From assembly GCA_016930085.1 (NCBI GenBank), contig JAFGHO010000016.1, forward strand, positions 31,340 to 95,339: a stretch of DNA of 64,000 bases, read 5' to 3'. Positions 41,643 to 55,249 of the stretch are shown here, in pieces (positions within the stretch are counted from its first letter, which is position 1; the number at the start of each line of letters is the position of its first letter). The DNA is from Spirochaetales bacterium. GTDB taxonomy: Bacteria > Spirochaetota > Spirochaetia > SZUA-6 > JAFGRV01. A model generated the notes under the pieces. The model saw nothing but the letters and a program-made list of their open reading frames with translations. It was not told where the DNA came from and did not search any database. A program made the position numbers and the translations under genes.

Positions 41643-44600
41643 TGCGTATAATCCTTGAACAGCAAACGCTGGCGGTAATCTTCATCGGCCGTTTTTTTTC
41701 TTGCACCCTCCGCATCACTTGTCAATCGCGCGGGGATATCCCGAAGATACCTGCTTTGTTCGTTCTCCTTCCATTTTCCGAAAACCTTGCGGCGTTTGCT
41801 CCATGAAAGATACAGCAGATCTTTCGCCCTTGTTAGGGCGACATAAAAAAGCCTTCGTTCTTCATCGGGATCGCTCGACGGACCGGTCAGGGGGGTAATT
41901 CCCTCTTCGCAGCCCGCGACAAACACAACGGGAAACTCGAGACCCTTCGAAGCGTGGAAGGTAAGCAGCCGTACCGTATCCGTTTTAAAAGGGCACCCGC
42001 TTTCGTTCGGGCCGATCATACAATAGGTGAGAAATCCTTCGAGATCGGATTGAAACCGCCCGGCCGATTCGAGAAGGGCGTCCTTTTTCATGACGATCGT
42101 CTGGTCCGTCACCGGGAAACAGGGAAATGTGTCGAAAATACACTCTAAAACTGCGGGGACCCCTTTTTCTTGAAGCAGCTTGCAAAGGTCACCGTGAAAA
42201 GCCAGCAACTCATCCGTCTTCCGCTGCTGCTTCTCCGTCAAAAGCCCGCTTTCAGCGAGTCCCCTCATCAGACACCGGTCTTCCGTCTGTTTCGCGTTTT
42301 CATCAAGAAATGGAAGCGGTTCATTTTCCGAAAACACCCCGTAAAGATGAACCAGCACATCACGCAGAGAAACGATATCATTTTCGTTCAAAAGAAGGTG
42401 GAGAAGGCTGCCCGCGCAGGAGAACGGTTTTTCCGAAAAAACCGGCCGTGCGGCCCCCCCGCTAACCGGTACGCCGGCTCCCGCCAGAAACGGTACGAGT
42501 GCTTCACCCGCCGCTTTGGTCCGTGTCAGTACGGCAATGTCGGAAAACGAATACTCGCATTTTCCCGCAAAGGCGGAATCCACGGAGGTAAAACTCATTC
42601 CGCCGACGAGTTCCTCTATCCGTGAAGCAATAAAAGCCCCTTCTTCAACCGGTTCTCCCGCCCTGAAAATCAGCACTTGTTCACCCCTGCCCCTGACCGG
42701 TACGAGTGTTTTCTTCCCCGTTGCCCCGTTTTTTCCGATAACGGAAGCCGCCGAACGGAGGATTTCCTCAGTGGAACGGTAGTGATTAATGAGTGTGATC
42801 GAAACGGGTGAATATTCCCGCCCGAGGCGGAAAAACAGCTTCACGTCGGACCCCCTGAATCCGTAAATTGCCTGATCCGGATCACCGATCGCGAAAAGAC
42901 ACCGCCTGAGTCCGTCGTCTGTTTCATGATACCGCGGAAAGAGCGTCGAAACCAGCTCATACTGTCCCGGATTGATGTCCTGAAACTCGTCGATGGCGAT
43001 AAACCTGTATCGCATCCTCAGGGATTGAAGAAGTTCGGGATCTTTTTGGAGGCAGGCGCACGTGCCCGTAATGAGCGACGAAAGGTCGAATCCGCCGTAC
43101 GCCTTGACCGCATCGAGGTAGCGTTGCGCAAGGGAACGGAGCCGTTTATCTGAGGATTCCCGCGGATTCATAAAAAGCCGCTCCATCCTGTCAGCCAGAC
43201 GAAGTACCTCCTTTTTTTTCATATCGGGATTGAGTATGCAAAGCAACTCGATCCGCCTGTATTTATCGTAGATGTTCCTGATTCGTGGGAATCTCTCCCT
43301 GATAATGTCAAGGCAAAAACCGTGAAACGTACAGACCTTGATACCGCCTGAAGACTTCCCCAGCATGACCGAGAGCCTCGATGCCAGTTCCTTTGACGCC
43401 CTGTTGGTGAAGGTGATCGCAAGAACCTGGCCCGATGAGGCCTGCCCGGTTTCGATGAGGCGTGCGATCCACGATGTGAGGGTTTTTGTCTTGCCGGTCC
43501 CAGGCCCGGCCGTAATTAGGAGCGCCCCTTCGGTCGTATTCAGAACCTCCCGCTGCTCCCGGTTGAGGGTATCCTTACTTTCGGGTTCACCGCTTCTTTC
43601 GCTTTTCCCCTTTTCCCCTTTCCGGATTCCCTTGTGCCCGGATGACCGCCGTGGAGAAAATTTTTTTCTTTCCGGAAGATTGCCGGCCTCAAAAAGGCTT
43701 TCCTGGCCGAGCAGGGCTTCGAGTTCATCGGCATCGAATACCCGTATAACACCAAACTCACCGTCGAAACCCGGCTTCGGGCGAATTCTTCCTTCCCTCA
43801 TCCGTCCGATCGCCTCTCGATAAACGGGACCGAACCTTTGTTCGATATCCGGAAGCGGAACATCGAGAAGAAAGGTGAACTCGTTTCCCCCGAATCCGAC
43901 GAGTTCGGCATAGGTCGAGAGAACCCCTTTCGAGCCCGGGCCGGTTCCCGTGATTTCGGAAACGATTTCGGGCAGGGGGATACAATATCTGAAGCCCGCG
44001 GAAGCTGCCGGCTTTATTCCCTTTTCCCTGTCAGCACATTCCAGAACACGGTGCATCACCCCCACGGTAAGCTTTCCCCCGCAGACCGGACACTCACCCG
44101 AGAGTCTCCTGGTTTCTTCCGGATCGCAGCAAATCCCGCATTTCCTGTGACCGTCGAGATGGTATTTCCCTTCTTCCGGATAAAATTCGATCGTTCCCTC
44201 GAAGCCTTCTCCGGTTTTAAGGGCCCGGAACATCGCGTCATAGGTGAGACCGGTTGAAAAAATATTTGCTTCCCGGCCGAGTTTTTGGGGCGAGTGGGCG
44301 TCCGAATTGGAAATCAGGGTATAGCGGTCGAGGGCGCTCCACCGCCAGTTCATTTCCGGATCGGATGAAAGCCCCGTCTCGAGGGCGAAAATATACCCGC
44401 TTAAATCTTCGAAACATTCCTCGATCGTATCGAACCCGCTTTTCGATCCGAAAAGAGAAAACCACGGCGTCCAGACATGGGCTGGAACGAGATACGCGTC
44501 CTCCGACGCATCGAGGACGATCTCGAGCAGGTGTTTGACGTCGAGTCCGAGGATTGGCCTTCCATCGGACGAAATATTTCCGATGGCATCGAGTTTTCTG

Positions 44601-44977
44601 TTTATCTTTTCGGCAACGGCAAAGTCCGGGGCGAAAAGCACGGAATGCACCTTTCTCGTCCGGTCGCCCTTTTTATAGATCGAACTGATTTCCGCCGAAA
44701 GGCAGAAACGGATATCGATATTCCCGCACCCGGCATCGTTGAACGGAAGATTCTCCGGGAGGTCGTCCGGCGGATCTTTCAGGATGAAAAAACCGTTCGA
44801 ATCCGGTTTCAGTTTTTCCTTGAGTTCGGAAAACCAGACGGGGTGAGTAAAATCCCCGGTCCCGATCAGATTAATGCCCTTGACCCTCGCCCACCGGTAA
44901 AACCCTTCGAGGTTCGACGCTTTGCTCGTCGCGCGTGAATGACATGAATGAACGTGAAGATCCGCTATATAATTCAT
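41639..44977 (-). CDS. PHP-domain phosphoesterase fused to UvrD/PcrA-like superfamily-1 DNA helicase
   Basis: The N-terminus 'MNYIADLHVHSCHSRATS' is a PHP His-cluster. A Cys4 cluster 'CGICCDPE...CPVCGG' follows. The UvrD Walker A is 'ITAGPGTGKTKT', with 'AITFTNRASKEL', 'DEFQDINPGQYEL' (motif II) and C-terminal helicase motifs. Confidence 0.7.
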   Translation of the reverse strand: MNYIADLHVHSCHSRATSKASNLEGFYRWARVKGINLIGTGDFTHPVWFSELKEKLKPDSNGFFILKDPPDDLPENLPFNDAGCGNIDIRFCLSAEISSIYKKGDRTRKVHSVLFAPDFAVAEKINRKLDAIGNISSDGRPILGLDVKHLLEIVLDASEDAYLVPAHVWTPWFSLFGSKSGFDTIEECFEDLSGYIFALETGLSSDPEMNWRWSALDRYTLISNSDAHSPQKLGREANIFSTGLTYDAMFRALKTGEGFEGTIEFYPEEGKYHLDGHRKCGICCDPEETRRLSGECPVCGGKLTVGVMHRVLECADREKGIKPAASAGFRYCIPLPEIVSEITGTGPGSKGVLSTYAELVGFGGNEFTFLLDVPLPDIEQRFGPVYREAIGRMREGRIRPKPGFDGEFGVIRVFDADELEALLGQESLFEAGNLPERKKFSPRRSSGHKGIRKGEKGKSERSGEPESKDTLNREQREVLNTTEGALLITAGPGTGKTKTLTSWIARLIETGQASSGQVLAITFTNRASKELASRLSVMLGKSSGGIKVCTFHGFCLDIIRERFPRIRNIYDKYRRIELLCILNPDMKKKEVLRLADRMERLFMNPRESSDKRLRSLAQRYLDAVKAYGGFDLSSLITGTCACLQKDPELLQSLRMRYRFIAIDEFQDINPGQYELVSTLFPRYHETDDGLRRCLFAIGDPDQAIYGFRGSDVKLFFRLGREYSPVSITLINHYRSTEEILRSAASVIGKNGATGKKTLVPVRGRGEQVLIFRAGEPVEEGAFIASRIEELVGGMSFTSVDSAFAGKCEYSFSDIAVLTRTKAAGEALVPFLAGAGVPVSGGAARPVFSEKPFSCAGSLLHLLLNENDIVSLRDVLVHLYGVFSENEPLPFLDENAKQTEDRCLMRGLAESGLLTEKQQRKTDELLAFHGDLCKLLQEKGVPAVLECIFDTFPCFPVTDQTIVMKKDALLESAGRFQSDLEGFLTYCMIGPNESGCPFKTDTVRLLTFHASKGLEFPVVFVAGCEEGITPLTGPSSDPDEERRLFYVALTRAKDLLYLSWSKRRKVFGKWKENEQSRYLRDIPARLTSDAEGARKKTADEDYRQRLLFKDYTQ

Positions 44978-45258
44978 CCCCGCCAGATTAACAGATTCGG
45001 GGGTGATTGTACAGGGACTTTTTTTCCTGTTTCGCCGGGAGTGTATCCCCGCATCGAACGGCGGATTGACGATATCGCCGGCCCTTAGCGGCTTTGCTTC
45101 GTTACACGTTGAAGCCGCGCGTTCATGGCGTGTTTCTCCATGATTGTGCGGAAAACCGCCTGTGTTACTGCGTCTTTTCGTATTGTTTTAACGAAAAAAA
45201 AATTATAAATGTCATTTTTTTGTTTTTTTTTTATTGACTCTTTTGGAATTGTATTTTA

Positions 45259-45274
45259 CGATTTGCGCAAATCG
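45259..45274. promoter_or_regulatory. Perfect 16-bp palindrome CGATTTGCGCAAATCG in the promoter region of the precursor operon
   Basis: It lies about 110 bp upstream of the precursor ATG, between a TTGACT -35-like hexamer (45234) and the RBS. An extra CAAATCG half-site follows. Confidence 0.3.
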
Positions 45275-45382
45275 TAATGATTTACACAAATCGCAAGCGC
45301 CCGGCGATGCCGTTTTTATTCATTTGGATGACATTACCTATGCTCGTTGAGCATTGACATTTTTACGAAAGGAGGAAACCTT

Positions 45383-45529
45383 ATGTACGAATCTCCATCA
45401 ATTGAAATGCTGGGTGATTCCCAGATGAACAACGTAATGGGAGCCTTTGTTTGGGCAATAGGTCCTGTTTTTGTTGCAGTAGCAGCCGTTGTATTACTCA
45501 TTTTGTCAGTAATTGATATCACTCCGTAA
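45383..45529 (+). CDS. RiPP/bacteriocin precursor peptide (48 aa): double-glycine-type leader with a Cys-free hydrophobic core
   Basis: An AGGAGG RBS lies 7 nt upstream. The leader is MYESPSIEMLGDSQMNNVMGA and the core is FVWAIGPVFVAVAAVVLLILSVIDITP. Leader positions L-12, M-7, V-4 and G-2/A-1 fit the GG-leader consensus. Confidence 0.6.
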   Translation: MYESPSIEMLGDSQMNNVMGAFVWAIGPVFVAVAAVVLLILSVIDITP

Positions 45530-45552
45530 CTGATTATCAATTAACTGAGCCA

Positions 45553-45587
45553 CGGTCGGAATTGAGATATTATCTCTTTTCCGACCG
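45553..45587 (+). terminator. Partial terminator/attenuator hairpin between the precursor and the maturase genes
   Basis: A 9-bp stem cggtcggaa...ttccgaccg has a ~17-nt loop and is followed by a weak T-rich tract. Confidence 0.4.
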
Positions 45588-45665
45588 ATTTACATTTGTA
45601 AAAGCTCATTATCGTATAATAAAATACTGATGAAATTATAATACAAATCAGGAAAGGAGTCAACT

Positions 45666-46712
45666 ATGGCGGAATTGCAATTGCCGGTGAATACATCGAT
45701 ACAGATCAAGCATGCAGAAATCGTAAAAGGGCCCACACAAATCGCTTTCGATATCACGAACAAATGCAATTTTAGGTGCCTTCACTGTTTTAATCGAAGC
45801 AGCGAGAACGACCGGATGAACGATGAATTAACCGACAAACAGGTAAAATATTTTATAAAAGATATAATCAAAATGAAACCGTTTAATATCTGTCTGTGCG
45901 GGGGAGAACCCCTGATCAGGTTTCATTTGATATGCGACATCTCCTCGATGCTCAAGGAGAACGACATCATGGTTTCCATGGTGACGAACGGATACCTGCT
46001 GACGGAGGAAAAGGCGGAAAAATTGTTCGCTTCCGGCGTACGCCGCGTCCAGGTAAGCCTCGATGGGGCCTGTCCGGAAACCCATGAGCGATTGAGAGTG
46101 AAAAAGGGAAGTTTTAATAAAGCGATCGAGGCGATAAAAATATTCAAGACTGCGGGATTCGACGATGTCGGTGTGGCGTTCACCCCGACCAATTTCAATT
46201 GTCACGAGGCAAGCGATGTGATCGCTTTATGCCGGAACCTCGGTGTCAGGGATTTCAGGGTACAGCCATTGATGTGTATCGGCCGGGCGAAGACGAACAT
46301 GGGAAATATACTTCCTTCGAATTACCAATACCGCAACCTCGTCAAGACACTCAATGAATCAAAGACCGAATATACAGACATTAAGATCGAATGGGGCGAT
46401 CCGATCGACCATTTGATTCGCTTCCGTACCGTCACACAACACCTGAACGTCTTTCTCGTCGTTCAGGCGAACGGAGATATAGCGGCTTCCCCGTATTTGC
46501 CGATAACGATCGGCAATATTAAAAAACACTCGATTCTGAAATACTGGAAAAAGGGATTGCCGAAAGTCTGGCAGTTCGAACCGATAAAAAAAATAGCGAA
46601 TAACATCAAATGCATGTCCGATTTCTCCAAAGAACACAAGGATTTGCCGATTGTTTGGTTCGATCAGAATATTCGATACGATGTTATCGACGACAAACTT
46701 ATCAGTTCATAA
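45666..46712 (+). CDS. Radical SAM peptide-modifying enzyme (partial SPASM/twitch-like C-terminal region)
   Basis: The radical SAM motifs are 'FDITNKCNFRCLHCF' (CxxxCxxC) and 'CLCGGEPL'. 'SLDGACPETHERL' is also present. The C-terminus has only scattered Cys (NFNCHE, IALCRN, LMCIG, IKCMS), so no full seven-Cys SPASM. Confidence 0.8.
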   Translation: MAELQLPVNTSIQIKHAEIVKGPTQIAFDITNKCNFRCLHCFNRSSENDRMNDELTDKQVKYFIKDIIKMKPFNICLCGGEPLIRFHLICDISSMLKENDIMVSMVTNGYLLTEEKAEKLFASGVRRVQVSLDGACPETHERLRVKKGSFNKAIEAIKIFKTAGFDDVGVAFTPTNFNCHEASDVIALCRNLGVRDFRVQPLMCIGRAKTNMGNILPSNYQYRNLVKTLNESKTEYTDIKIEWGDPIDHLIRFRTVTQHLNVFLVVQANGDIAASPYLPITIGNIKKHSILKYWKKGLPKVWQFEPIKKIANNIKCMSDFSKEHKDLPIVWFDQNIRYDVIDDKLISS

Positions 46713-46744
46713 TATTTTAGTTATAATAAAATGGAGATGTAATC

Positions 46745-47653
46745 ATGAAAAAAGGAACACCGCACTTTAAAAGTGAAAATCTGCTTTACATGAGGGAGGA
46801 AAACAAAGGTTGTGTCACACTGTTATCCAAATTCCACCCCGAACTGAGAGAATTGGTGATAAACAAAACAACGAAAGAAATCATCGATTTATGCGACGGT
46901 CAAAACACGATCGAAGACATCATTTCAAAAATGAAAGCGAAATATCCGATGGTCCAGTCGGCCATCATTACAAATGACGTACACAAAATTCTCGCTAGTA
47001 CCTCCAGATTGATGTTGATTCAATGGGAACACGAGAACCCGTACCTTTTTCTGAGAGAAGAAATCATAGACGATACGTACGGATTGAGAATCGGCGTCGA
47101 AGACGATTTGTTGAAGATAAAGAAATTTATTATGGACAGCGATATTCTTACAAATGGGAACGACGTTTCTTCCTCGCATTTTTATTATAAAAATGTTTAT
47201 GTCAACACATATGAATACGACGAAGTTTTATTGCGGCAGAAAATATTCAATTTTAACGAGGAGTTCTTCTTTTTAACAAAAAACGGGGAAATAGAAGGAT
47301 TATTATCCTTTCAGCTGCCCATTCCCCCGTCAAAGGCCGCCGTATTGAAGATGTGCATTTGTGCAAAAGAATATTTCAGGGAATTGTTTCGCTATGCATC
47401 GGACAATCTCCCGCACATATCCGTTTCGCAGCTTTCGAAAATTAAATTTATTATCAGTTCGAAGGAGCCTGTTGACGACTCCCTGGTTGAATTGCTAATA
47501 TCTGAAGGATTCGGGGACGAGGGATTGTTCAGGGACGAACTGGGTTTTGATCATGATATTTCCGTCATGGGCTTGAGCTACGATCCCGTCCTTATCGATG
47601 AGATCGAAAAAAACAGGAAAGCGGCTACCGCTATCGGCGGACTGGCGCAGTAG
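46745..47653 (+). CDS. PqqD-like RiPP recognition element (RRE) fused to a ~200-aa domain of unknown function
   Basis: The N-terminal block 'VTLLSKFHPELRELVINKTTKEIIDLCDGQNTIEDIISKMKAKYP...ITNDVHKIL' matches the PqqD/RRE consensus ('ln.ta..iw.l.dG..t..ei...l...y......DV..fl'). Confidence 0.5.
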   Translation: MKKGTPHFKSENLLYMREENKGCVTLLSKFHPELRELVINKTTKEIIDLCDGQNTIEDIISKMKAKYPMVQSAIITNDVHKILASTSRLMLIQWEHENPYLFLREEIIDDTYGLRIGVEDDLLKIKKFIMDSDILTNGNDVSSSHFYYKNVYVNTYEYDEVLLRQKIFNFNEEFFFLTKNGEIEGLLSFQLPIPPSKAAVLKMCICAKEYFRELFRYASDNLPHISVSQLSKIKFIISSKEPVDDSLVELLISEGFGDEGLFRDELGFDHDISVMGLSYDPVLIDEIEKNRKAATAIGGLAQ

Positions 47654-47721
47654 AAACGGGACCGGCGCACAATCGGACGGATTTACCGAAATATCACAAG
47701 GGGAGTGACAGGAATCGAACC

Positions 47722-48486
47722 ATGTATCGACGTTATATGTTAAACGTATCGTTTTTCGTTTTGAGTTTCTTTTTCTCGCATTGTTTCATTTTCGCGGAAC
47801 CGGCCCTGGGGAAAATCGTTTCGGATATAAAAAACAGTAAAAAGGAAATGAGCGGCAAAATCGCCGATATAACGATCATACAGGAAAGCGAAATATATTC
47901 GGAGAAGGGAACGATGCACCTCCGGTCGACGATTTACAAAAAGTCAGATAAATTCCGGGTCGAGAATTCCTGTGAGTTCGCCGGCGCAATTACCGAAGAA
48001 ACAATCATCTATGACGGCCGCGATTACTGGAAAATAGGAAGCGGCCTGAAACAGAAAATAAACAGGGACGAAATGCTGGAGAAGAACAAAACGATTGCCT
48101 TGCAGAAAAACTGGTGGGAAATAATTTCGGAGGAATCACGGCTTGAACAAGCCGACGATGAGGTAACGAACTGCTATATCATCCTGAGTGATAACAACAA
48201 TGAAACATATCGGTGCTGGGTTAACAGGGACAATCTGCTTCTCGAAAAAATCGAAATCATGTTTTCCGAAGACGACAGCATCATTATCGTCTACGGCGGT
48301 TTTGAATCAGTTGTCGACGGGCACGAAATGGCGACGAAAATCGAGCTGTACAGAAACGGTATATTGGACTCGAGAATTTCAATCAAAAAGATCGACATAA
48401 ATACCGGCGTCTCCGACGAGTTATTCGATCCGGACAGGGAAAAAAGTTTCGACCTGAATCGTATATTAAAGGATCTTTTTCAATAA
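47722..48486 (+). CDS. Secreted protein, LolA-like / unknown function
   Basis: A signal peptide 'MYRRYMLNVSFFVLSFFFSHCFIFA' is present. The length and composition suggest a beta-rich lipoprotein-carrier-like fold. The fold assignment is weak. Confidence 0.35.
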   Translation: MYRRYMLNVSFFVLSFFFSHCFIFAEPALGKIVSDIKNSKKEMSGKIADITIIQESEIYSEKGTMHLRSTIYKKSDKFRVENSCEFAGAITEETIIYDGRDYWKIGSGLKQKINRDEMLEKNKTIALQKNWWEIISEESRLEQADDEVTNCYIILSDNNNETYRCWVNRDNLLLEKIEIMFSEDDSIIIVYGGFESVVDGHEMATKIELYRNGILDSRISIKKIDINTGVSDELFDPDREKSFDLNRILKDLFQ

Positions 48487-48563
48487 ATCGGTATAGCGAA
48501 TACCCGAACAATAAACCATTGTTTATATGATCGATAAAAAATTACAATCAGAGAGGATGTTAT

Positions 48564-49055
48564 ATGAGATTATCCAGAATAATCGGATTCCTGAACAGGA
48601 GAAAGGAAAATGAAATGACGGGGGCCGGATTTATCGCCGGAACCGTCCTGGGAATTATCATCGGGCTGTATATCTTTCTTTCGGTACTTATTCTGAAAGA
48701 GGTCACATTAAACCAGCTCGAACTCTCACTCAAGCCGTACGAACGGCTTATCAGCATGGACCCGGTTACCATTTATTATATTACCCTCATCGCGACCCCG
48801 CTTATCGTGGTCTTCATTCATATGATAATCGGTGTGGTGATCGGGATCGGTGTCAATAAACTGAAAAAACCGTCCGCCTGGAAGATCTTGCTCGGCGGGG
48901 CCGCTCTGGGGACGCTTTTCGGCTTTATCACGAGTGCCCCGGCCCCGAGGATTGTTACGTTTATAGTCTGTTTGGCGGCGTGGATTGTTTTTTCCCTTGT
49001 TTTTCTCCTGACCGTTCGTTTATCGAACAGGGAACCGGAGGATAAAACGGCCTGA
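48564..49055 (+). CDS. Small 4-TM membrane protein (candidate immunity protein)
   Basis: Four hydrophobic helices are present. The RBS is 'gagagga'. No catalytic motifs were found. Confidence 0.4.
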   Translation: MRLSRIIGFLNRRKENEMTGAGFIAGTVLGIIIGLYIFLSVLILKEVTLNQLELSLKPYERLISMDPVTIYYITLIATPLIVVFIHMIIGVVIGIGVNKLKKPSAWKILLGGAALGTLFGFITSAPAPRIVTFIVCLAAWIVFSLVFLLTVRLSNREPEDKTA

Positions 49056-49172
49056 TGCCCTGAAGGGAAAAGACAGAGAGATAATGAAAAGCGGCGGGGC
49101 GTATTTCCCGGCGACACCCGAGTCGATTGCGGTCTCCGCGGAAATGCGGATGGAAATATAACTCATGGAAAA

Positions 49173-50948
49173 ATGGAAGAACCGATGAATAAAACTATAC
49201 TGGCGTATAAGGATTTAAAACGGTTACTCGGAATTTTTACGACCTATATTAAAGGGAAAAAGGGGTTATTGTTCCTCGGCGTATTTCTGGGGATAATAAG
49301 CCGGTTATGTGCGTTATCCATCCCCTTGTTTTCGAAATTTATTATCGACACCGTCATCTTCAAAGGTTTTGACAGTTACCTCAACATAACGATACTCTCC
49401 GGGATCGTCATTCTCATTCTTCTTGCGGGGTCATCGATTCTGTCGAATTATCTTCTCTTTAAGGTAAACGGTCTGGGCGGGATCAAGTTCAAGTATTCTT
49501 TTTTCAGAAAACTGCAATATGCGCCATTTACCTTTTTTACCACTATTCAAAAAGGCGCGATCGCCCACAGAATATTGACGGACACCGAACGGATTATCGG
49601 TTTCTGGACGCAGACCGTCGCGACATTGCCGCTGATCGTTATCCTGGGCGCGGGCGGGGCGATAATGCTTCATTACAATCCCGTTCTCTCCTACTTTATC
49701 TTTAGTATTATTTTGCTTCAAATCCTTATCATCGTCGTCTTCAAGGGCCCGATCATGCGGTCCTCATTTTCAATCAAGGAAAACATGGAAAAGCTCACTT
49801 CCTATACCGTGGAGTTTTTTACAAAAATAGAACTGGTGAGAACCCATTCCACCGAAAAAAGCGAACAAAAGAAATTTCTGGGTTCAGTACGGAAATTGTT
49901 CCGGGCGGCATTCAGAAACTTCATGCTCAACAAGGGATATAACAACATCATCGCCTTTCTTTCCTATCTGTGGATCTTCGTCGTGCTCTGGTACGGCGGC
50001 ACACAGATACTGGCGGGTAACATGACAATAGGGACGCTTTCCGCGTTTTTACTCCTTGTCAATATCCTCAACACTCCCATTTTCATGCTGACCGAACTGG
50101 TCCTTTCATTTCAACAAATACGAACCAGCCTTTACCGGTACGAGGAATTCGCAAGGGTCGGAAGATATCTGCCGCCACCTTCCGGCGGCAGGCCCCTGAA
50201 ACCATACAAACCCCAGGAAGGCAGGATCGAATTGAAAGGCGTATCGTTCGGCTACAATGACCATTACGTTCTCAGAAACATCAATGAAGTCATCGAACCG
50301 AATTCCATAACTGCCCTGGTCGGCAGGACCGGCGCAGGTAAATCCACCTTTTGCCGGCTACTGATTAGACTGTTCGATCCGCAATCGGGCTCCATCTATC
50401 TGGACAACAGGGACATCAGGGAAATCAAAATACCTTCTTTAAGAAAATCGATTCATCTCTCTCTGCAGAACAACCATGTGATGAACGGCACACTCTGGGA
50501 AAATCTGACATACGGTACCGGTCATGTCGATAAAAAGGATGTCCTTCTGGCAATGAAAAAAGCGGGAATCGATTTTCATTATAAAATGCCGGCCGGATTC
50601 GACACGTTGATCGGTGTTCACGGATTGAATCTGTCAGGCGGGGAATGCCAGCGGATCGCCATAGCGAGGGCATTGCTTTTAAATCCGAAGGTTTTCATAT
50701 TCGACGAAACGACGGCATATATCGACAACAGGACGGAAGAAAAGATCAAGGATGTATTATGCGAATTGAAACGATCGGGCACCGTTATTCTCATCACGCA
50801 CCGCAGCTCGACGCTGGATGTCGTCGATAATGTCCTGTTATTCGATAATGGAACGATAACGGAATCCGCACCCTCGCATGTTCTGAAACGGGACAGGGGA
50901 AGCGAGTTTTTTAAATCTTTTTATTCAAAAGGAGGCACCCCGGAATGA
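49173..50948 (+). CDS. ABC transporter, fused permease/ATPase (peptide/bacteriocin exporter type; no fused C39)
   Basis: Six N-terminal TM helices precede Walker A 'GRTGAGKST', the signature 'LSGGECQRIAIARAL' and Walker B 'IFIFDETTAYID'. Confidence 0.85.
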   Translation: MEEPMNKTILAYKDLKRLLGIFTTYIKGKKGLLFLGVFLGIISRLCALSIPLFSKFIIDTVIFKGFDSYLNITILSGIVILILLAGSSILSNYLLFKVNGLGGIKFKYSFFRKLQYAPFTFFTTIQKGAIAHRILTDTERIIGFWTQTVATLPLIVILGAGGAIMLHYNPVLSYFIFSIILLQILIIVVFKGPIMRSSFSIKENMEKLTSYTVEFFTKIELVRTHSTEKSEQKKFLGSVRKLFRAAFRNFMLNKGYNNIIAFLSYLWIFVVLWYGGTQILAGNMTIGTLSAFLLLVNILNTPIFMLTELVLSFQQIRTSLYRYEEFARVGRYLPPPSGGRPLKPYKPQEGRIELKGVSFGYNDHYVLRNINEVIEPNSITALVGRTGAGKSTFCRLLIRLFDPQSGSIYLDNRDIREIKIPSLRKSIHLSLQNNHVMNGTLWENLTYGTGHVDKKDVLLAMKKAGIDFHYKMPAGFDTLIGVHGLNLSGGECQRIAIARALLLNPKVFIFDETTAYIDNRTEEKIKDVLCELKRSGTVILITHRSSTLDVVDNVLLFDNGTITESAPSHVLKRDRGSEFFKSFYSKGGTPE

Positions 50949-51595
50949 GATATGGGCCGTATCGGCGTCTTGCGTGCTCCCTCCTTTTTCTTGCCGTCAC
51001 ACTCAATGCCGCCTCGGGCGGCCAGACCGTCGTCACACCGTATTACCGGCTGAAGTTCGAATCGATGGACCGGCAGATATCCGAGTATGCGTGCGGCATC
51101 GCCGTGTTGACGACGTTATTCAATCATTACTTCGAGATAAACCTTTCACAACAAGAAGTCATCGATCGATATGTCGCACAAATTATGGAAGAAAGGCGAG
51201 GAATTAGTTTTTTAGACTTAAAAAAAATCGCCGCCGACCGGGGATTTACCGCAAAGGGATTTAAAATCAACCTCGCCGCCCTGCTGGAATTTTTGAAAGT
51301 CAATACCGTGCCGCTTATCATTCATCTGAATGTCAGGTACGGCGCGGAGAAGGTCGGTCACTTCTGCCTGTTGCTTGGTGAAACGGACGGTTATTTCATT
51401 ATCCAGGACCCGGCATACGGCAATTGCGTTTATACGAAAAGCCAGTTGCTCGATAAATGGAGCGGCAATATCCTCGTTATCGTTCCGCCGGAAAACGACA
51501 AGACGACCGTTGAACGCAGCCGGGAGAATATGGAAAAAGTCATCGAACGGGGAATAGAACGAATACAAAGGATGTTATATTATGAATCATACTAA
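50945..51595 (+). CDS. Standalone C39-like cysteine peptidase (double-glycine leader peptidase type)
   Basis: A signal/anchor is present. The catalytic Cys lies in 'SEYACGIAVLTTLFNHY'. The His is in 'VGHFCLLLG' and the Asp in 'IIQDPAYG'. It overlaps the ABC stop by 4 nt. Confidence 0.6.
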   Translation: MRYGPYRRLACSLLFLAVTLNAASGGQTVVTPYYRLKFESMDRQISEYACGIAVLTTLFNHYFEINLSQQEVIDRYVAQIMEERRGISFLDLKKIAADRGFTAKGFKINLAALLEFLKVNTVPLIIHLNVRYGAEKVGHFCLLLGETDGYFIIQDPAYGNCVYTKSQLLDKWSGNILVIVPPENDKTTVERSRENMEKVIERGIERIQRMLYYESY

Positions 51596-52493
51596 AAACC
51601 CTCTCTTCATCATACTTTGCGCGTCTATTTCGCTCTGTACCGCAAACGATATACACGCGCAATCGGAGAATTCATTATTCAAATTCGGTCTGGAAAAAGC
51701 TTTGGTCCTTTCGGATTCGCTCCATTACAGAAGCGCGACGTCAACGGATGTACAGGAACGGACGATCACAAACACGTTTCAGGCGGGCTATTTCTTTACC
51801 GATGCCTTGTCTCTGTTTCTTACCGTTCCTTTTTCATGCGCTATCTATTCGATTAAAAACATCAATAAAGAAGCAGCCTATGAAACCCAGGCGTTCCTTC
51901 GACTTGAAAACAGCAGCGCGGCCCTTCATTATAAACTCGATTTTTCCCGTATGACCCTCAAAGTCATAGCGGGCCTTGAAATTCCGTCGATGGCCGCCGT
52001 CTGTGACTATTCATCGATCGACAATCCGGGCGACGTTCTCATATCATTCGATTCCGAGTATTCCGATGCCGCACTCGATGATCTCAGAATGTTGACATTG
52101 CTTGCCGGTGAGACATGCTGTTTCACCATAGACCCCGTCATATTGTTCGTATCCCTGAATATTTCATACCCCCTTTGGCGGGAGAAGGATACCGAAGCCA
52201 TCTACACGACGTTCAAGAGCCAGTTGATTCAATCATTGTATTTCATCGTCAACGACTCGATCAGTCTTTTTTACGATATCGGCATCATGCTATACAAGGG
52301 AGAAAATGCCGCCATGATTGAAACCTATGTTGTAAACGGCGGATGCAATATATTGATCTCCCCGACGACGGAAATCGGATTAAATGTAATGACCGCTTTC
52401 AGCGGAAACACGGCCTTCCCGGGTCTCGGCGTCACGCTGACAAAAATAATCAAGGCGGAAGGAAGCGACGCCGGTATTCCTGAAAGCCGTTAA
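51582..52493 (+). CDS. Secreted hypothetical protein
   Basis: A signal peptide 'MNHTKNPLFIILCASISLCTANDIHA' is present. It overlaps the upstream gene by 14 nt. Beta-rich, no motifs. Confidence 0.35.
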   Translation: MNHTKNPLFIILCASISLCTANDIHAQSENSLFKFGLEKALVLSDSLHYRSATSTDVQERTITNTFQAGYFFTDALSLFLTVPFSCAIYSIKNINKEAAYETQAFLRLENSSAALHYKLDFSRMTLKVIAGLEIPSMAAVCDYSSIDNPGDVLISFDSEYSDAALDDLRMLTLLAGETCCFTIDPVILFVSLNISYPLWREKDTEAIYTTFKSQLIQSLYFIVNDSISLFYDIGIMLYKGENAAMIETYVVNGGCNILISPTTEIGLNVMTAFSGNTAFPGLGVTLTKIIKAEGSDAGIPESR

Positions 52494-52556
52494 CCGTCCG
52501 AAGTCCAGGCCGGCGGCGGACGGCCGTTTCCGGAACCGGTTGTCGTGAGAGGGAGT

Positions 52557-53411
52557 ATGAATAAAAAAATCATCCTCTATATTCTCGTCAATTGCATACT
52601 CATCGGAATAGTGGCGGCCGTTTCCGTTATCCTCCATACCGAAATCCGTTATTTCGCGGCGCTTTATATGTTTTTCCCGTTCATTGCGACACTCGTCGCC
52701 GCCGTAAAATACCGGATACCGGCAGCCGACCTGGGATTGAAAATAAGCATCGGTCCGTGGTACGCGGCGGCGTGGATACTCCCCTTTTTTCTCGCCGTTC
52801 TCTCGATCCTCATCAGTCTGATGATGGGACCCGGCATGTCGTTTTCCCCCGGCATGGAAGGACTCGAACGTTTCGGCATCGCCCCCGATGCATTGCCGTC
52901 AAACGGGGGGCTTTCCGTTTGCGGTTGGATCGGCCGTATTTTCCTTGCGTTTGCCGGGGGAATCACCGTCAACGCGATATTCGCGCTCGGAGAGGAAATC
53001 GGATGGAGGGGGCTTCTCTACAAGGAATTGCGCGGCCTCGGTTTCTGGAAATCGTCGCTTGCCGCGGGACTCCTCTGGGGCGTCTGGCACGCGCCGGTCA
53101 TTCTTTCCGGCTACAATTACCCGAACCACCCCGAAATCGGTGTTTTCATGATGACCGCATTCTGCATTCTGCTTTCCCCCCTCATGCAGTTCTTGCGGGA
53201 AAAAACGGGTTCCGTCATACCCCCCGCCGTTTTTCACGGCACTATCAACGCCTTTGCGGGATATACCGTCATATTGATCAAAGGCGGAAACGACTTGCTG
53301 ACCGGCATGACCGGACTGAGCGGGATGATCGTTTTCCTGCTTATGGACGGCCTTTTGTTCGTTTATATGCGGACAGGGAAAGCGGATGGAGAGGGCAACC
53401 GGGAAGTTTGA
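52557..53411 (+). CDS. CPBP-family (CAAX/Abi) intramembrane metalloprotease, bacteriocin-immunity-like
   Basis: Multiple TM helices are present. Motif 1 is 'FALGEEIGWRGLLY' (EExxxR), with 'FWKSSLAAGLLWGVWH' and 'VFHGTINAF' (His motif). Confidence 0.7.
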   Translation: MNKKIILYILVNCILIGIVAAVSVILHTEIRYFAALYMFFPFIATLVAAVKYRIPAADLGLKISIGPWYAAAWILPFFLAVLSILISLMMGPGMSFSPGMEGLERFGIAPDALPSNGGLSVCGWIGRIFLAFAGGITVNAIFALGEEIGWRGLLYKELRGLGFWKSSLAAGLLWGVWHAPVILSGYNYPNHPEIGVFMMTAFCILLSPLMQFLREKTGSVIPPAVFHGTINAFAGYTVILIKGGNDLLTGMTGLSGMIVFLLMDGLLFVYMRTGKADGEGNREV

Positions 53412-53794
53412 TTTATAGAGAAACATATTTTCGGGCGAGGACAACTCTTCGCAGGAGTTACGGAAAAACAAGGGAAATAAAGAATAATAGATTATAAAAT
53501 CGGAAACAGCCATTTTTCAGAATATCTTGCTGATATGCCTTGTATCATTGCTGTACAAAACAGGGTAGATTAATTGCCTGATCTCCATTGTATATTGAAG
53601 CTGAAAAACAAACAAATCATTATATCAAAAGGAGATCAAGAATGTAAAAAAATATCACGATAATAATGCAATTTTGACAGCCTATTTAGCCATGCGAACC
53701 TATAAAGTCGAAAAGAATGCGAAAGGTTTTTCTTCATGGAAACGGTTTATTGAGATGGTTTTAGGTCAGATTCAATATCTTAAAGGTAAGCGGC

Positions 53795-53832
53795 CTTACA
53801 AACCGCCTCCAAAGGAGGCGGTTTGCTTTTGT
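53795..53832 (+). terminator. Strong GC hairpin terminator in the intergenic region after the RiPP operon
   Basis: An 11-12-bp stem caaaccgcctcc-aaa-ggaggcggtttg is followed by CTTTTGTT. Confidence 0.55.
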
Positions 53833-53883
53833 TAATCGACAGCGCTTTCGGGGGAGATTATTCCCATGAATAAGGTCTCCCTA

Positions 53884-54327
53884 TTACAGAAGCACCACAC
53901 CCGGAAAAATCAGATGGATAACCGCGACCGACATACCGGTTATCCCTATCAGTACATGGTACTTCTTGATGGTCGATCTTATTTTTCCGGTATCTTGTTT
54001 AACAATCTCCCCTTCCACTTCTTTATCCTTTTTTGTAAACACGGCGAGCAGCAGGCTTCCGCCTATTGCACAACCCGTCAGTGCGGGGAGCAGGTCTTCC
54101 AGAATAAAAATCCCTCCCGGTTTGATAAACACGAAAAACTGAAGAATCCCGACAGCCAGTGCCGTGATCCCTAATACGGTTTGTATACCCTTGTTGACCA
54201 AAATTCTCCTTATCGGATTAAGCAGCTTAATATCGGTTTCTATATTTCTGAACATGAGAGCCAATCCCCCCAGGAATAGCGTTAGAATGGAAATAAAATA
54301 TAATTGCAGCATGTTTGACTCCTCCAC
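53884..54327 (-). CDS. Hypothetical 4-TM membrane protein
   Basis: Hydrophobic helices throughout. No motifs. Confidence 0.4.
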   Translation of the reverse strand: MEESNMLQLYFISILTLFLGGLALMFRNIETDIKLLNPIRRILVNKGIQTVLGITALAVGILQFFVFIKPGGIFILEDLLPALTGCAIGGSLLLAVFTKKDKEVEGEIVKQDTGKIRSTIKKYHVLIGITGMSVAVIHLIFPGVVLL

Positions 54328-54538
54328 TTTATATTAAAATACCTATTTGTTATGGCTATATACCGTATTCTTATTTTTTAATAGTTATAATGACACATAT
54401 CCTCTTTTTACTGCTTTTTTTCACTTCTGCGGCTCCACGGGATTTTGCCGCCCGTTCTCTTTTTATATTGATTTTTTTATCCGGAATCAATAATCCGCTT
54501 GTCTAAAAATTATCCAGGGTGTAATATGATACGCTGTC

Positions 54539-55249
54539 ATGCCGTATAGTATTTTAATTGTGGATGATGATAAAGATTTCAGAGTCGAGTTCCGTGATAT
54601 ACTGGAAGAAGAATATGATGTATATGAAGCAGCAAGCGGAGAAAAGGCTATTGAAATCATAAAAAAACCGAATATTGTCGATCTCGCCATTCTGGATGTT
54701 AAAATGCCGGGAATACAGGGAACAGAGGTTTTAAAACAATTAAAGCAACTGGTACCGGACTTGATAATCATAATTGTTACCGGTTATGGTTCAAAGGATG
54801 TCATAATTGAATCCTTAAGAAGGCATGCCGATGATTTTCTGGAAAAACCTTTGAAAATAGAAACGGCGCTGCAAAGAATCAAACAGCTTTTATACAACAA
54901 ACAATGTGAAGTAAAAGGCGTCATTGAAAAATTAAAGCATTTTATCGAAAAAAATTTTCACAAGAAAATAAGTCTAAAGGATGCTTCAAACGTTGTCTGT
55001 TTGAGTCCCAAATATATCTCAAAAATATTTAAAGACGAGGTCGGGATTGGATTCAATGAATATAAACTCAGGTTAAAAATGGAGAGGGCAAAAGAATTAC
55101 TGGGTTTGCATACGTACAATATCAATGAGATTGCCGGTAAAATAGGATATCTGAATATCGAATCCTTTGCAAGGATATTTAAACACCTGACAGGTGTTAC
55201 TCCCTCTGAATATAGACAGCTTTTATTTCATGGAGAAAAACATGAATAA
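54539..55249 (+). CDS. Response regulator with AraC-type HTH output
   Basis: The receiver is 'ILIVDDDKDFRVEF...LAILDVKMPGIQG'. The C-terminal AraC HTH is 'LKDASNVVCLSPKYISKIFKDEVG ... IAGKIGYLNIESFARIFKHLTGVTPSEYR'. Confidence 0.8.
   Translation: MPYSILIVDDDKDFRVEFRDILEEEYDVYEAASGEKAIEIIKKPNIVDLAILDVKMPGIQGTEVLKQLKQLVPDLIIIIVTGYGSKDVIIESLRRHADDFLEKPLKIETALQRIKQLLYNKQCEVKGVIEKLKHFIEKNFHKKISLKDASNVVCLSPKYISKIFKDEVGIGFNEYKLRLKMERAKELLGLHTYNINEIAGKIGYLNIESFARIFKHLTGVTPSEYRQLLFHGEKHE

What the first reader, a model, noticed from the sequence alone, without database searches (positions are those of the whole stretch)
45383..45529. Precursor peptide: double-glycine (GA) leader plus 27-aa Cys-free Val/Ala/Leu/Ile-rich core
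The translated peptide is MYESPSIEMLGDSQMNNVMGA|FVWAIGPVFVAVAAVVLLILSVIDITP. The leader has the classic GG-leader spacing, with hydrophobic residues at -12, -7 and -4 and G-A at -2/-1. This matches the C39-like peptidase encoded 5.4 kb downstream. The core is almost entirely aliphatic with Trp and Phe near the cut site and has no Cys, Ser or Thr before the last seven residues. That composition resembles epipeptide or polytheonamide-like substrates. Alternatively it fits aromatic-to-aliphatic C-C crosslinked cyclophane substrates (FVW / PVF triads). The 9-bp-stem hairpin directly downstream (45553-45587) is the kind of attenuator that boosts precursor:enzyme stoichiometry in RiPP operons.
Basis: seen in the sequence. 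Interest (0 to 1): 0.8.

Follow-up and report, generated by a model that had tools for sequence, protein, structure and literature searches.

The report
Hydrophobic radical-SAM peptide precursor gene
This 48-codon gene is a real, conserved precursor of a modified peptide, and it belongs to a widespread bacterial family (at least 259 species) for which I found no published description.

Summary
ORF 45383-45529 encodes the stated 48-aa peptide behind a strong AGGAGG ribosome-binding site. Homologues show dN/dS of about 0.1, so it is a real gene.

It heads a nine-gene cassette that recurs in other genomes:
- precursor
- radical SAM enzyme
- PqqD(RRE)/GNAT-fold partner
- two small envelope proteins
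- ABC exporter
- stand-alone C39 peptidase with a signal-like N-terminus
- a secreted protein
- CPBP protease

The leader carries two overlapping signals. It saw the second, a canonical double-glycine site: L-12, Q-8, M-7, V-4, G-2, A-1.

The radical SAM enzyme and RRE/GNAT pair sit next to YxxP-led, Ala/Val-rich peptides in 259 GTDB species, including Collinsella, Faecalibacterium, Paenibacillus and Treponema. The enzyme lacks the cysteines needed for an auxiliary Fe-S cluster and falls below the cut-off of every NCBIfam family.

The chemistry is unknown. Many cores have no Cys and some have no aromatic residue, so the family-wide target must be aliphatic residues or the backbone. Epimerisation is my best guess. 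I found no paper describing the family. I rate it a new variant of radical-SAM RiPPs, with interest 0.62.

The parts
45234..45262 (+). Promoter-like site (TTGACT, 17-nt spacer, TACGAT), about 120 nt upstream of the precursor start codon
   Evidence: This is a consensus match only (9 of 12 positions), and such matches are no more frequent here than in shuffled sequence.
45256..45296 (.). Inverted repeat (18-nt arms, 83% complementary, 5-nt gap) overlapping the -10 element. It may be an operator.
   Evidence: repeat I1. The function is inferred.
45370..45375 (+). Shine-Dalgarno sequence AGGAGG, 7 nt before the ATG
   Evidence: Homologous precursors also have GGAGG-type sites.
45383..45529 (+). 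Precursor peptide gene (48 aa plus stop codon)
   Evidence: dN/dS about 0.1. NCBI annotates it as hypothetical protein JW881_02805 of a Spirochaetales MAG.
45386..45415 (+). Leader motif Y2-E-S-P5-S-I7-E-M-L10-G11, the predicted RRE-binding element (YxxPx[IV]xx[L]G)
   Evidence: Y and P are present in 41 of 41 curated family precursors, [IV] in 37 of 41, L in 25 of 41 and G in 26 of 41. Twelve peptides found without using the leader all carry the motif. YxxP is the lasso-peptide RRE recognition sequence (PMC12710340). Binding itself is inferred.
45410..45445 (+). Double-glycine-type cleavage signal: L10(-12) ... Q14(-8) M15(-7) ... V18(-4) M G20(-2) A21(-1). The predicted cut is after A21.
   Evidence: The rules come from PMC6363468. 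The motif co-occurs with a stand-alone C39 peptidase. Cleavage has not been shown.
45446..45526 (+). Core peptide of 27 aa, FVWAIGPVFVAVAAVVLLILSVIDITP. It has the length of a membrane span, no basic residue and no Cys, and it ends in the recurrent motif [ST]-x-I-D-[IVLA]-T-P.
45553..45587 (+). Stem-loop (9 + 5 bp) starting 24 nt after the stop codon, followed by ATTTACATTTG
   Evidence: Similar hairpins occur in 14 of 22 related loci. One search did not flag it as a canonical terminator.
45666..46712 (+). Radical SAM enzyme (348 aa) with CNFRCLHC. It has no conserved cysteines for an auxiliary Fe-S cluster. C76-x-C78 next to the GGEP motif is specific to this family.
46745..47653 (+). Partner protein (302 aa): an N-terminal PqqD-type RRE and a C-terminal GNAT-fold domain that lacks the Gly-rich acyl-CoA loop
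   Evidence: PqqD hit. All 27 aligned members hit PqqD. The profile matches SpeG-type GNATs at 4.5e-7. It is adjacent to the rSAM gene in nearly all loci and fused to it in L017 and L033.
47722..48486 (+). 254-aa protein with a signal-like N-terminus. The hint of a LolA-like fold is weak.
   Evidence: Pfam LolA_like E 0.0064, below the cut-off. It is conserved in the cassette. A PDB profile search found nothing.
48564..49055 (+). 163-aa polytopic membrane protein. Its homologues hit DUF6796.
49173..50948 (+). ABC exporter (591 aa: transmembrane domain plus ATPase) with no N-terminal peptidase domain
50945..51595 (+). Stand-alone C39 cysteine peptidase (216 aa) with a signal-like N-terminus. 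Q44, C50, H139 and D155 are invariant.
   Evidence: E 1.4e-19. Its best NCBIfam matches are FilB and FapD. Alignment.
51582..52493 (+). 303-aa protein with a signal-like N-terminus and no recognisable domain. It could be an outer-membrane or periplasmic component.
   Evidence: It is conserved in the cassette. Its role is inferred.
52545..53411 (+). CPBP/Rce1-like intramembrane protease (288 aa), the last gene of the cassette
   Evidence: PF02517, E 4.8e-15. It is conserved in L001, L089, L090 and L091.

Best explanation
ORF 45383-45529 is the structural (precursor) gene of a ribosomally made, radical-SAM-modified, membrane-active peptide.

Proposed pathway, with shown (S) and inferred (I) steps marked:
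1. The 48-aa precursor is translated from a strong ribosome-binding site (S: gene under purifying selection).
2. Its N-terminal Y2-x-x-P5-x-I7-x-x-L10-G11 segment is bound by the PqqD-type RRE of the 302-aa partner protein (I, by analogy with lasso RRE/YxxP).
3. The partner's degenerate GNAT-fold domain docks onto the 348-aa radical SAM enzyme and presents the core to it (I: the two genes are adjacent almost everywhere and fused in two lineages).
4. The enzyme has only the SAM-cleaving [4Fe-4S] site and no auxiliary-cluster cysteines. It abstracts hydrogen from unactivated aliphatic residues or backbone C-alpha of the Ala/Val-rich core. My preferred outcome is redox-neutral L-to-D epimerisation, with the family-specific C76/C78 pair beside the GGEP motif as hydrogen donor (I, speculative, about 0.3).
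5. The ABC exporter moves the modified precursor across the inner membrane (I).
6. The stand-alone C39 peptidase, which has a signal-like N-terminus, cuts after G20-A21 and releases the 27-aa core FVWAIGPVFVAVAAVVLLILSVIDITP (I; the site is well supported by conservation).
7. The secreted 254-aa and 303-aa proteins help the very hydrophobic product across the diderm envelope, and the CPBP protease gives immunity or further trimming (I, weak).
8. The hairpin after the stop codon ends or stabilises most precursor transcripts, so that precursor outnumbers enzymes (I).
For: - Real gene: exact translation and ribosome-binding site, homologues and dN/dS of about 0.1.
- Cassette synteny: the same nine genes occur in L001-L004, L089, L090 and L091, with the precursor-ABC-C39 segment also present in L092.
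- Enzyme pair: the rSAM has Pfam E 1.5e-27 and PqqD has E 1e-5. tblastn finds the rSAM plus partner adjacent in nearly all 88 loci, and they are fused in L017 and L033.
- Family of precursors: a search by hydrophobic core plus ribosome-binding site alone found 12 peptides next to these rSAM genes, and all start M-x-Y-x-x-P-x-[IV]. Forty-one curated precursors are summarised.
- YxxP is the lasso RRE recognition sequence (PMC12710340). About 300 lasso-type RREs are known to sit beside rSAM genes instead of lasso cyclases (PMC7470986).
- No auxiliary cluster: the invariant columns of the 25-sequence alignment contain no Cys after residue 78.
- Fold: the AF2 model has pLDDT 87.7. Its nearest solved structures are SkfB and SuiB.
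- Double-glycine site: 12 of 12 sub-clade leaders keep L-12, [ML]-7, [VI]-4 and G-2. The rules are in PMC6363468. The C39 catalytic residues Q/C/H/D are invariant.
- Hairpin: z -6.5 in the window, and a comparable hairpin in 14 of 22 loci.
Against: - No experiment of any kind. Neither the modification, nor RRE binding, nor the cleavage site has been observed.
- Epimerisation is argued only by elimination: no auxiliary cluster, no universal Cys or aromatic residue, and Val/Ala-rich cores. The enzyme belongs to neither known peptide-epimerase family. EpeE ranks only 34th in the fold search at 15% identity.
- A sub-group of relatives has Glu at -1 (V-Q-G-E), which is unusual for double-glycine peptidases.
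- Firmicute relatives have no C39 peptidase at all.
- The LolA-like assignment is below Pfam's cut-off, and profile searches of the 254-aa and 303-aa proteins found nothing.
- The GNAT-like domain might still be catalytic.
- The hairpin has a poor U-tract, and a promoter-like site follows it.
Confidence: 0.85

Rival explanations
1. Same precursor and enzymes, but the radical SAM enzyme performs an oxidative reaction on aliphatic side chains instead of epimerisation. Examples are valine-to-cyclopropylglycine conversion (as TvgB does), desaturation, or an aliphatic-to-aromatic or aliphatic-to-aliphatic C-C crosslink. Each event would give a product lighter by 2 Da.
For: - The cores are 43% Ala plus Val.
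- Val-to-cyclopropylglycine by an rSAM enzyme with an RRE is documented (PMC9062424).
- The window's own core has F1, W3 and F9, which could take part in crosslinks.
- The nearest solved structures, SkfB and SuiB, are crosslinking enzymes.
Against: - By my own knowledge of the field, the known crosslinking and cyclopropyl-forming peptide rSAM enzymes carry SPASM or twitch auxiliary clusters. This family has no conserved cysteines for one.
- Several cores contain no aromatic residue (L024a, L024b, L045), so an aromatic crosslink cannot be the family-wide reaction.
Confidence: 0.3
2. The peptide is an ordinary unmodified double-glycine (class II-like) bacteriocin or a small membrane protein. The neighbouring radical SAM and PqqD genes act on something else.
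For: - The leader fits double-glycine rules.
- An ABC exporter, a C39 peptidase and a CPBP protease of the immunity type are present.
- The core looks like a single transmembrane helix.
Against: - The rSAM/RRE pair is next to YxxP-led hydrophobic peptides across more than ten phyla, including loci with no C39 peptidase at all.
- The part of the leader conserved family-wide is the RRE-type motif, not the double-glycine motif.
- rSAM-RRE fusions exist.
Confidence: 0.07
3. The product is not an antibiotic. It is a structural or envelope component, such as a membrane-inserted or fibre-forming peptide, exported by a Fap/Fil-like route consisting of a periplasmic C39 peptidase plus an outer-membrane protein.
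For: - The C39 protein's best NCBIfam matches are FilB (a pilus system) and FapD (amyloid maturation). Both scores are far below those families' cut-offs.
- It has a signal-like N-terminus.
- The precursor is more conserved (79%) than any enzyme of the cassette (27-55%). That is atypical for bacteriocins.
- The core length and the C-terminal IDITP motif are kept from Spirochaetes to Firmicutes.
Against: - No Fap or Fil subunit genes are present.
- Firmicute loci carry a second ABC ATPase of the kind usually linked to self-immunity.
- Multiple divergent precursor copies per locus (L017, L024) look like bacteriocin diversification.
Confidence: 0.15

Closest known systems
Lasso-peptide leader / RRE (B1, PqqD-like) recognition
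   Same: The leader carries Y-x-x-P-x-[IL]-x-x-x-G with the same spacing as the lasso YxxP recognition sequence (PMC12710340). A PqqD-type RRE is encoded next to it. RRE-Finder had already noted about 300 lasso-type RREs beside rSAM genes (PMC7470986).
   Different: There is no lasso cyclase and no B2 transglutaminase-type peptidase in the cassette. There is no Thr at -2. The core has no position for an Asp/Glu ring closure. The RRE is fused to a GNAT-fold domain.
Double-glycine leader peptides cut by C39 peptidases (PCAT/AMS transporters such as LahT and ComA)
   Same: G-A at -2/-1, V-4, M-7, Q-8 and L-12 (rules in PMC6363468). The C39 protein has the catalytic Q/C/H/D residues. An ABC exporter is adjacent.
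   Different: The C39 domain is a separate 216-aa protein with a signal-like N-terminus, so it is probably periplasmic. It is not the cytoplasmic N-terminal domain of the transporter. Its best family matches are FapD and FilB. Some relatives have Glu at -1.
SkfB / SuiB-type RiPP radical SAM maturases (SPASM/twitch clade)
   Same: These are the best sequence and fold matches: SkfB at E 1.4e-17 and Foldseek 1.4e-15 at 25% identity. They also act on a peptide with the help of an RRE.
   Different: No conserved auxiliary-cluster cysteines. The C-terminal roughly 125 residues (WGDPxDH ... GN ... YW) do not align to solved SPASM or twitch domains by sequence. The substrate core has no Cys (SkfB makes a thioether) and no Lys (SuiB makes a Lys-Trp link).
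Radical SAM peptide epimerases: epipeptides (YydF/EpeX with YydG/EpeE) and proteusins (polytheonamide PoyA/PoyD)
   Same: The substrates are rich in Val/Ile/Ala, and the products act on membranes. The reaction is redox-neutral, so in principle it needs no auxiliary cluster. Some family cores (L086, L031, L022) resemble the Val/Ala/Gly/Asn-rich polytheonamide core as I recall it.
   Different: The enzyme is not a member of either family. EpeE ranks 34th in the fold search at 15% identity. No NCBIfam family cut-off is reached. The leader is 21 aa with YxxP, not an NHLP or Nif11 domain. The cluster has no B12-rSAM methyltransferases.
PQQ and mycofactocin systems (PqqE/PqqD, MftC/MftB)
   Same: A radical SAM enzyme works with a separate PqqD-family peptide chaperone on a small ribosomal peptide. 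MftC and PqqE are among the better NCBIfam matches.
   Different: Scores are far below the cut-offs (112 against 265; 84 against 381). Those enzymes have SPASM clusters and act on Tyr/Glu or a C-terminal Val-Tyr. Here the chaperone is fused to a GNAT-fold domain and the core is a hydrophobic 27-mer.
Poly-cyclopropylglycine peptides (TvgA/TvgB)
   Same: A radical SAM enzyme modifies valine side chains in a repetitive Val-rich core (PMC9062424).
   Different: By my own recollection, TvgB is an rSAM-SPASM enzyme. TvgA has TVGG repeats, and no such repeat is present here.

Membership tests
RiPP precursor with RRE-dependent radical SAM maturation (generic RaS-RiPP) | A small ORF next to a radical SAM gene and an RRE (PqqD-like) gene, conserved together | tested here: met
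RiPP precursor with RRE-dependent radical SAM maturation (generic RaS-RiPP) | The peptide is actually modified after translation by the enzyme | not testable with these tools
   This needs co-expression and mass spectrometry.
Double-glycine (GG) leader peptides | G-[GAS] at -2/-1 with hydrophobic residues at -4, -7 and -12 | tested here: met
   The pattern is conserved in 12 of 12 sub-clade relatives. The rules are in PMC6363468.
Double-glycine (GG) leader peptides | A cognate C39 peptidase with the catalytic Cys/His/Asp residues is encoded in the cluster | tested here: met
   It is a stand-alone, signal-bearing protein, not a PCAT domain.
Double-glycine (GG) leader peptides | Cleavage after the GG-type motif | not testable with these tools
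   An in vitro cleavage assay is needed.
Lasso peptides | YxxP leader motif bound by a PqqD-like RRE | tested here: met
   The motif is present and so is the RRE. Binding was not tested.
Lasso peptides | A lasso cyclase (Asn-synthetase-like) and a B2 transglutaminase-like leader peptidase in the cluster | tested here: not met
   The Pfam scan of all nine cassette proteins shows neither.
Sactipeptides / ranthipeptides | Cys residues in the core, and an rSAM enzyme with SPASM or twitch auxiliary clusters | tested here: not met
   The core has no Cys, and only 11 of 41 family cores have any. There are no conserved C-terminal cysteines.
Triceptides / cyclophane-forming 3-CyFE systems | An aromatic-X-X motif conserved in the cores, and an rSAM-SPASM enzyme | tested here: not met
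   Cores L024a, L024b and L045 have no aromatic residue. There are no SPASM cysteines. The idea is not excluded for the window's own core (F1, W3, F9).
Proteusins (polytheonamide type) | An NHLP or Nif11 leader domain and a PoyD-type epimerase | tested here: not met
   The leader is 21 aa with no Pfam or NCBIfam hit. The rSAM's best matches are AhbD, NirJ, MftC and SkfB types, all below their cut-offs.
Epipeptides (YydG/EpeE) | A YydG-family rSAM enzyme with an auxiliary cluster and a Cys223-type hydrogen donor | tested here: not met
   EpeE is only a distant fold match (rank 34, 15% identity). There are no auxiliary-cluster cysteines.
Any curated NCBIfam radical SAM family | A score at or above the family's curated cut-off | tested here: not met
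   The best score is 136 bits against a cut-off of 500 (AhbD). All of the best 25 matches shown (of 87 families matched) are below their cut-offs.

The most novel reading that the evidence does not exclude
This gene may represent a phylum-spanning RiPP class that has not been described. The class would be defined by three features: a YxxP leader, an RRE fused to a degenerate GNAT domain, and a radical SAM enzyme with no auxiliary Fe-S cluster. The enzyme would modify unactivated aliphatic residues in a core the length of a membrane span. The most interesting version is that it installs D-residues in Ala/Val-rich sequences, giving ribosomally made gramicidin- or polytheonamide-like channel peptides in Spirochaetes, gut Actinobacteria (Collinsella) and Firmicutes (Faecalibacterium, Clostridium, Paenibacillus). 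In diderms these would be exported by a dedicated route with a periplasmic C39 peptidase.
Probability: 0.25. Interest if true: 0.85.

Novelty: new variant of a known kind. Interest (0 to 1): 0.62.

Why it matters
Confirmation would add a large family to the radical-SAM RiPPs. The family has at least 465 enzyme clusters at 90% identity and occurs in 259 GTDB species, including common human-gut genera.

Three features stand out:
- The enzyme has no auxiliary Fe-S cluster, and the substrates offer almost nothing but Ala, Val, Ile, Leu and Gly. The chemistry must therefore act on unactivated aliphatic positions.
- The leader shows how one 21-residue segment can carry two overlapping recognition codes: a lasso-type YxxP motif for the RRE and a double-glycine motif for a C39 peptidase.
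- The precursor is more conserved than its enzymes, and the core keeps its length and its C-terminal IDITP motif across phyla. That points to a precise structural role in membranes.

The genes are small and the cassette is compact, so the question can be tested directly by co-expression and mass spectrometry.

Tried and rejected
- Family scans of the peptide itself against Pfam and NCBIfam gave no hit.
- Rfam found nothing in 44000-54500, so there is no known riboswitch or attenuator family here.
I used no fold claims from it. The GNAT assignment rests on the profile-against-PDB result.
- Profile searches of the 254-aa and 303-aa cassette proteins against PDB sequences found nothing meaningful. 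'LolA-like' stays a weak hint (Pfam E 0.0064), and 'outer-membrane protein' is only a guess.
- A word-indexed homologue search with the partner protein returned just 3 proteins. I built its alignment from translated loci instead.
- Six literature searches found no paper on this enzyme/precursor family. The library holds open-access papers only, so a subscription-journal report cannot be excluded.
- Lasso peptide: rejected, because there is no cyclase or B2 peptidase.
- Sactipeptide or ranthipeptide: rejected, because the core has no Cys.
- Cyclophane as the family-wide chemistry: rejected, because some cores have no aromatic residue.
- Proteusin: rejected, because there is no NHLP leader.
- A second precursor copy in the window: none found.
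Full report
**1. Observation.**
Window 45383-45529 (+) translates to MYESPSIEMLGDSQMNNVMGAFVWAIGPVFVAVAAVVLLILSVIDITP. AGGAGG lies at 45370-45375, 7 nt before the ATG. Counting back from G20-A21 gives V(-4), M(-7), Q(-8) and L(-12). The 27-aa core has no Cys and no basic residue, and its first Ser is seven residues from the end.

The hairpin at 45553-45587 is real: a 9-bp outer stem and a 5-bp inner stem, dG -28.6 kcal/mol, z -6.5 against shuffles. The C39 gene starts 5.4 kb downstream.

**2. Is it a gene?**
Small ORFs are abundant here: 139 ORFs of at least 40 aa overlap 18 kb. Size alone proves nothing.
- NCBI annotates the peptide as a hypothetical protein of a Spirochaetales MAG, and it has homologues of 47-49 aa.
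- Codon-level comparison with three of them gives dN 0.15-0.38 and dS from 1.5 to saturated. The ratio is about 0.1 for the leader and the core alike.

**3. Context in the window.**
Downstream on the same strand lie eight genes:
- a radical SAM enzyme (45666-46712; PF04055, E 1.5e-27);
- a 302-aa protein with an N-terminal PqqD domain (46745-47653);
- a 254-aa protein with a signal-like N-terminus (weak LolA_like hint, E 0.0064, below the cut-off);
- a 163-aa membrane protein;
- an ABC exporter without a peptidase domain;
- a 216-aa stand-alone C39 peptidase with a signal-like N-terminus, whose best NCBIfam matches are FilB and FapD;
- a 303-aa protein with a signal-like N-terminus and no recognisable domain;
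- a CPBP/Rce1-like intramembrane protease.

The same nine genes occur in unrelated assemblies: in the same order in L001-L004, L089 and L091, and split into two blocks in L090. The precursor-ABC-C39 segment recurs in L092. The cassette has 0.38-0.48 G+C against 0.53-0.58 in the upstream flank, which suggests horizontal acquisition.

**4. The family.**
- The radical SAM enzyme has 465 homologue clusters at E below 1e-20, and the 120 listed share 43-65% identity with it.
- A scan of one genome per GTDB species found it in 259 species. These include Collinsella, Faecalibacterium, Treponema, Paenibacillus, Clostridium, Caldisericum, Gemmatimonadota, Nitrospira and WOR-3.
- tblastn of the window's proteins against 88 fetched loci shows that the enzyme and the 302-aa partner are adjacent almost everywhere. 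The C39 peptidase and the secreted proteins are confined to the closest clade.
- In L017 (Caldisericum) and L033 (Anaerolineae) the enzyme and partner are one reading frame of 632 and 680 aa.
- A search for small ORFs using only a ribosome-binding site and a hydrophobic stretch found 12 peptides next to these enzymes. Every one starts M-x(0-4)-Y-x-x-P-x-[IV].
- A leader-based search then recovered precursors in most loci, often in several copies: four in L024 and at least four in L017.
- Among 41 curated precursors, Y and P are invariant (partly by construction), [IV] follows at Y+5 in 37, L at Y+8 in 25 and G at Y+9 in 26.
- The cores are 22.8% Val and 19.9% Ala, with 1.2% Lys plus Arg. Only 11 of 41 have any Cys, and some (L024a, L024b, L045) have no aromatic residue.

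**5. The leader carries two codes.**
- YxxP is the established recognition sequence of lasso-peptide RREs (PMC12710340). The authors of RRE-Finder noted that about 300 'lasso-type' RREs sit beside rSAM genes rather than lasso cyclases, and they treated them as false positives (PMC7470986). The window's Y2-x-x-P5-x-I7-x-x-x-G11 has the same spacing. Binding to the partner's RRE is inferred, not shown.
- In the C39-bearing sub-clade, the second half of the leader is L(-12)-G-[DN]-x-[EQD](-8)-[ML](-7)-x-x-[VI](-4)-x-G(-2)-[AGSE](-1) in 12 of 12 peptides.
- This matches the double-glycine rules. [quoted passage not shown]
- The C39 homologues keep Q44, C50, H139 and D155.
- All seven distinct loci that have V-x-G-[AGS] and enough flanking DNA hold a stand-alone C39 peptidase. 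Firmicute loci without the motif have none.

I therefore put cleavage after G20-A21 at about 0.75. Two oddities remain. The peptidase looks exported rather than cytoplasmic, and a sub-group has Glu at -1 (V-Q-G-E).

**6. The enzymes.**
- Radical SAM enzyme.
  - The 25-sequence alignment has invariant CNxRCLHC, C76-x-C78-GGEP, QPLMxxGR, WGDPxDH and GN...YW. It has no conserved cysteine after residue 78, so there are no ligands for a SPASM or twitch auxiliary cluster.
  - It reaches no NCBIfam cut-off; the best score is 136 bits against a required 500.
  - Its closest solved relative is SkfB, both by sequence and by fold (AF2 model pLDDT 87.7; Foldseek 1.4e-15 at 25% identity). SuiB, viperin, MoaA, PqqE and anSME follow, and the epimerase EpeE ranks only 34th.
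- Partner protein.
  - Its C-terminal domain matches SpeG-type GNAT acetyltransferases by profile (E 4.5e-7).
  - SpeG's Q-G-K-G-F acyl-CoA loop aligns to a glycine-free segment, so the domain is probably a non-catalytic scaffold. That is an inference.

**7. What the enzyme does.**
This is not determined.
- Many cores lack Cys and some lack aromatic residues. Thioether formation cannot be the reaction shared across the family, and for the same reason neither can a cyclophane or a Trp/Tyr crosslink. Only aliphatic side chains, Thr or backbone C-alpha are always available.
- Without an auxiliary cluster, a redox-neutral reaction is easier to rationalise. L-to-D epimerisation is therefore my preferred guess (about 0.3), with C76/C78 beside the SAM-binding GGEP motif as a possible hydrogen donor.
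- The analogy is with the epipeptide and proteusin epimerases, but this enzyme is a member of neither family.
- Oxidative chemistry on Val or Ile remains a serious rival (about 0.3). Examples are cyclopropylglycine as made by TvgB (PMC9062424), desaturation, or an aliphatic crosslink.

**8. Unusual conservation.**
- Between the window and L001 the precursor is 79% identical. The enzymes are less conserved: rSAM 55%, ABC 43%, partner 41%, C39 41%, CPBP 34% and the 254-aa protein 27%.
- The C-terminal motif [ST]-x-I-D-[IVLA]-T-P and the 27-28-aa core length recur in Spirochaete-type loci and in Firmicutes (L018, L021, L024, L029). L029 aligns without gaps from the C-terminus.
- This is unlike typical bacteriocin cores and suggests a tight structural constraint. 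It keeps alive a non-antibiotic reading in which the product is an envelope or structural peptide.

**9. Hairpin.**
- A stable stem-loop within 70 nt after the precursor stop codon (z at or below -3.5) is present in 14 of 22 loci, with no sequence similarity between them.
- In the window the U-tract is poor and the simple scan does not call a terminator.
- A promoter-like site at 45596-45625 could drive the enzyme genes separately.
- Rfam has no match.

**10. Literature and novelty.**
- Six full-text searches and six papers read found no description of this enzyme/precursor family.
- The nearest related report is a different YxxP/WxxP-led family that uses a signal-peptidase-like protease (PMC13381572).
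- The library covers open-access papers only.
- I rate the finding a new variant of a known kind (RRE-dependent radical-SAM RiPPs) rather than categorically new.

**11. Verdict.**
| Claim | Estimate |
|---|---|
| Precursor of this radical-SAM/RRE system | 0.85 |
| Double-glycine cleavage after A21 | about 0.75 |
| Epimerisation as the chemistry | about 0.3 |
| Interest | 0.62 |

Noticed in passing
window 45256-45296: An inverted repeat (TTACGATTTGCGCAAATC / GATTTACACAAATCGCAA, 83% complementary) overlaps the -10 element of the promoter-like site upstream of the precursor. It may be a repressor operator.
   Followed up: no
window 45000-58000: G+C drops to 0.34-0.48 across the cassette and the following genes (AraC-type response regulator 54539-55249 and PAS histidine kinase 55194-56840). 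The flanks are at 0.53-0.58. This looks like a horizontally acquired island.
   Followed up: partly
L017 8040-9935; L033 5851-7890: In a Caldisericum genome and an Anaerolineae MAG, the radical SAM enzyme and the RRE/GNAT partner are one continuous reading frame of 632 and 680 aa. These are natural fusions that link the two proteins functionally.
   Followed up: partly
window 45383-45529 compared with L001 6283-6432: The precursor is the most conserved gene of the cassette, at 79% identity against 27-55% for the enzymes and transporters. This is the opposite of the usual pattern for bacteriocin cores.
   Followed up: partly
window 45506-45526; L018 2087-2230; L021 9113-9256; L024 9447-9773; L029 3614-3757: The C-terminal motif [ST]-x-I-D-[IVLA]-T-P-stop recurs in precursors from Spirochaete-type loci and several Firmicutes, with the same core length. 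Other family members end differently. Its meaning is unknown.
   Followed up: no
L046-L083 (Collinsella loci), e.g. L046 9069-9272: An identical 67-aa precursor (MYEKPVVDNMNPTRASTLGTETWFDMYYIVWGANVAVGVTAVGAYELVLITFAAALPLSEQGGQDEQ) occurs in 32 fetched Collinsella species-level genomes. The family is therefore common in the human gut.
   Followed up: no
L045 3163-3378; P0134, P0135, P0137, P0138, P0142: A sub-group of leaders ends V-Q-G-E or V-S-G-E, with Glu at the predicted -1 position. That is unusual for double-glycine peptidases. L045 still has a C39 gene, but the short contig L093 shows a YhfC-like gene instead.
   Followed up: partly
L017 838-3705 and 9980-10075; L024 9087-9773: Some loci carry several divergent precursor copies that share an almost identical leader: at least four in Caldisericum sp. 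AR60 and four in tandem in a Clostridiales MAG.
   Followed up: no
window 45596-45625: A promoter-like site (TTGTAA, 18-nt spacer, TAAAAT) lies between the hairpin and the radical SAM start codon. It could allow the enzyme genes to be transcribed independently of the precursor.
   Followed up: no
L009 2099-2260: In this MAG the precursor gene sits downstream of the RRE/GNAT gene, and its core region is masked as a run of N in the stored record. Only the leader MSLTYQSPTIETVGGDD can be read.
   Followed up: no
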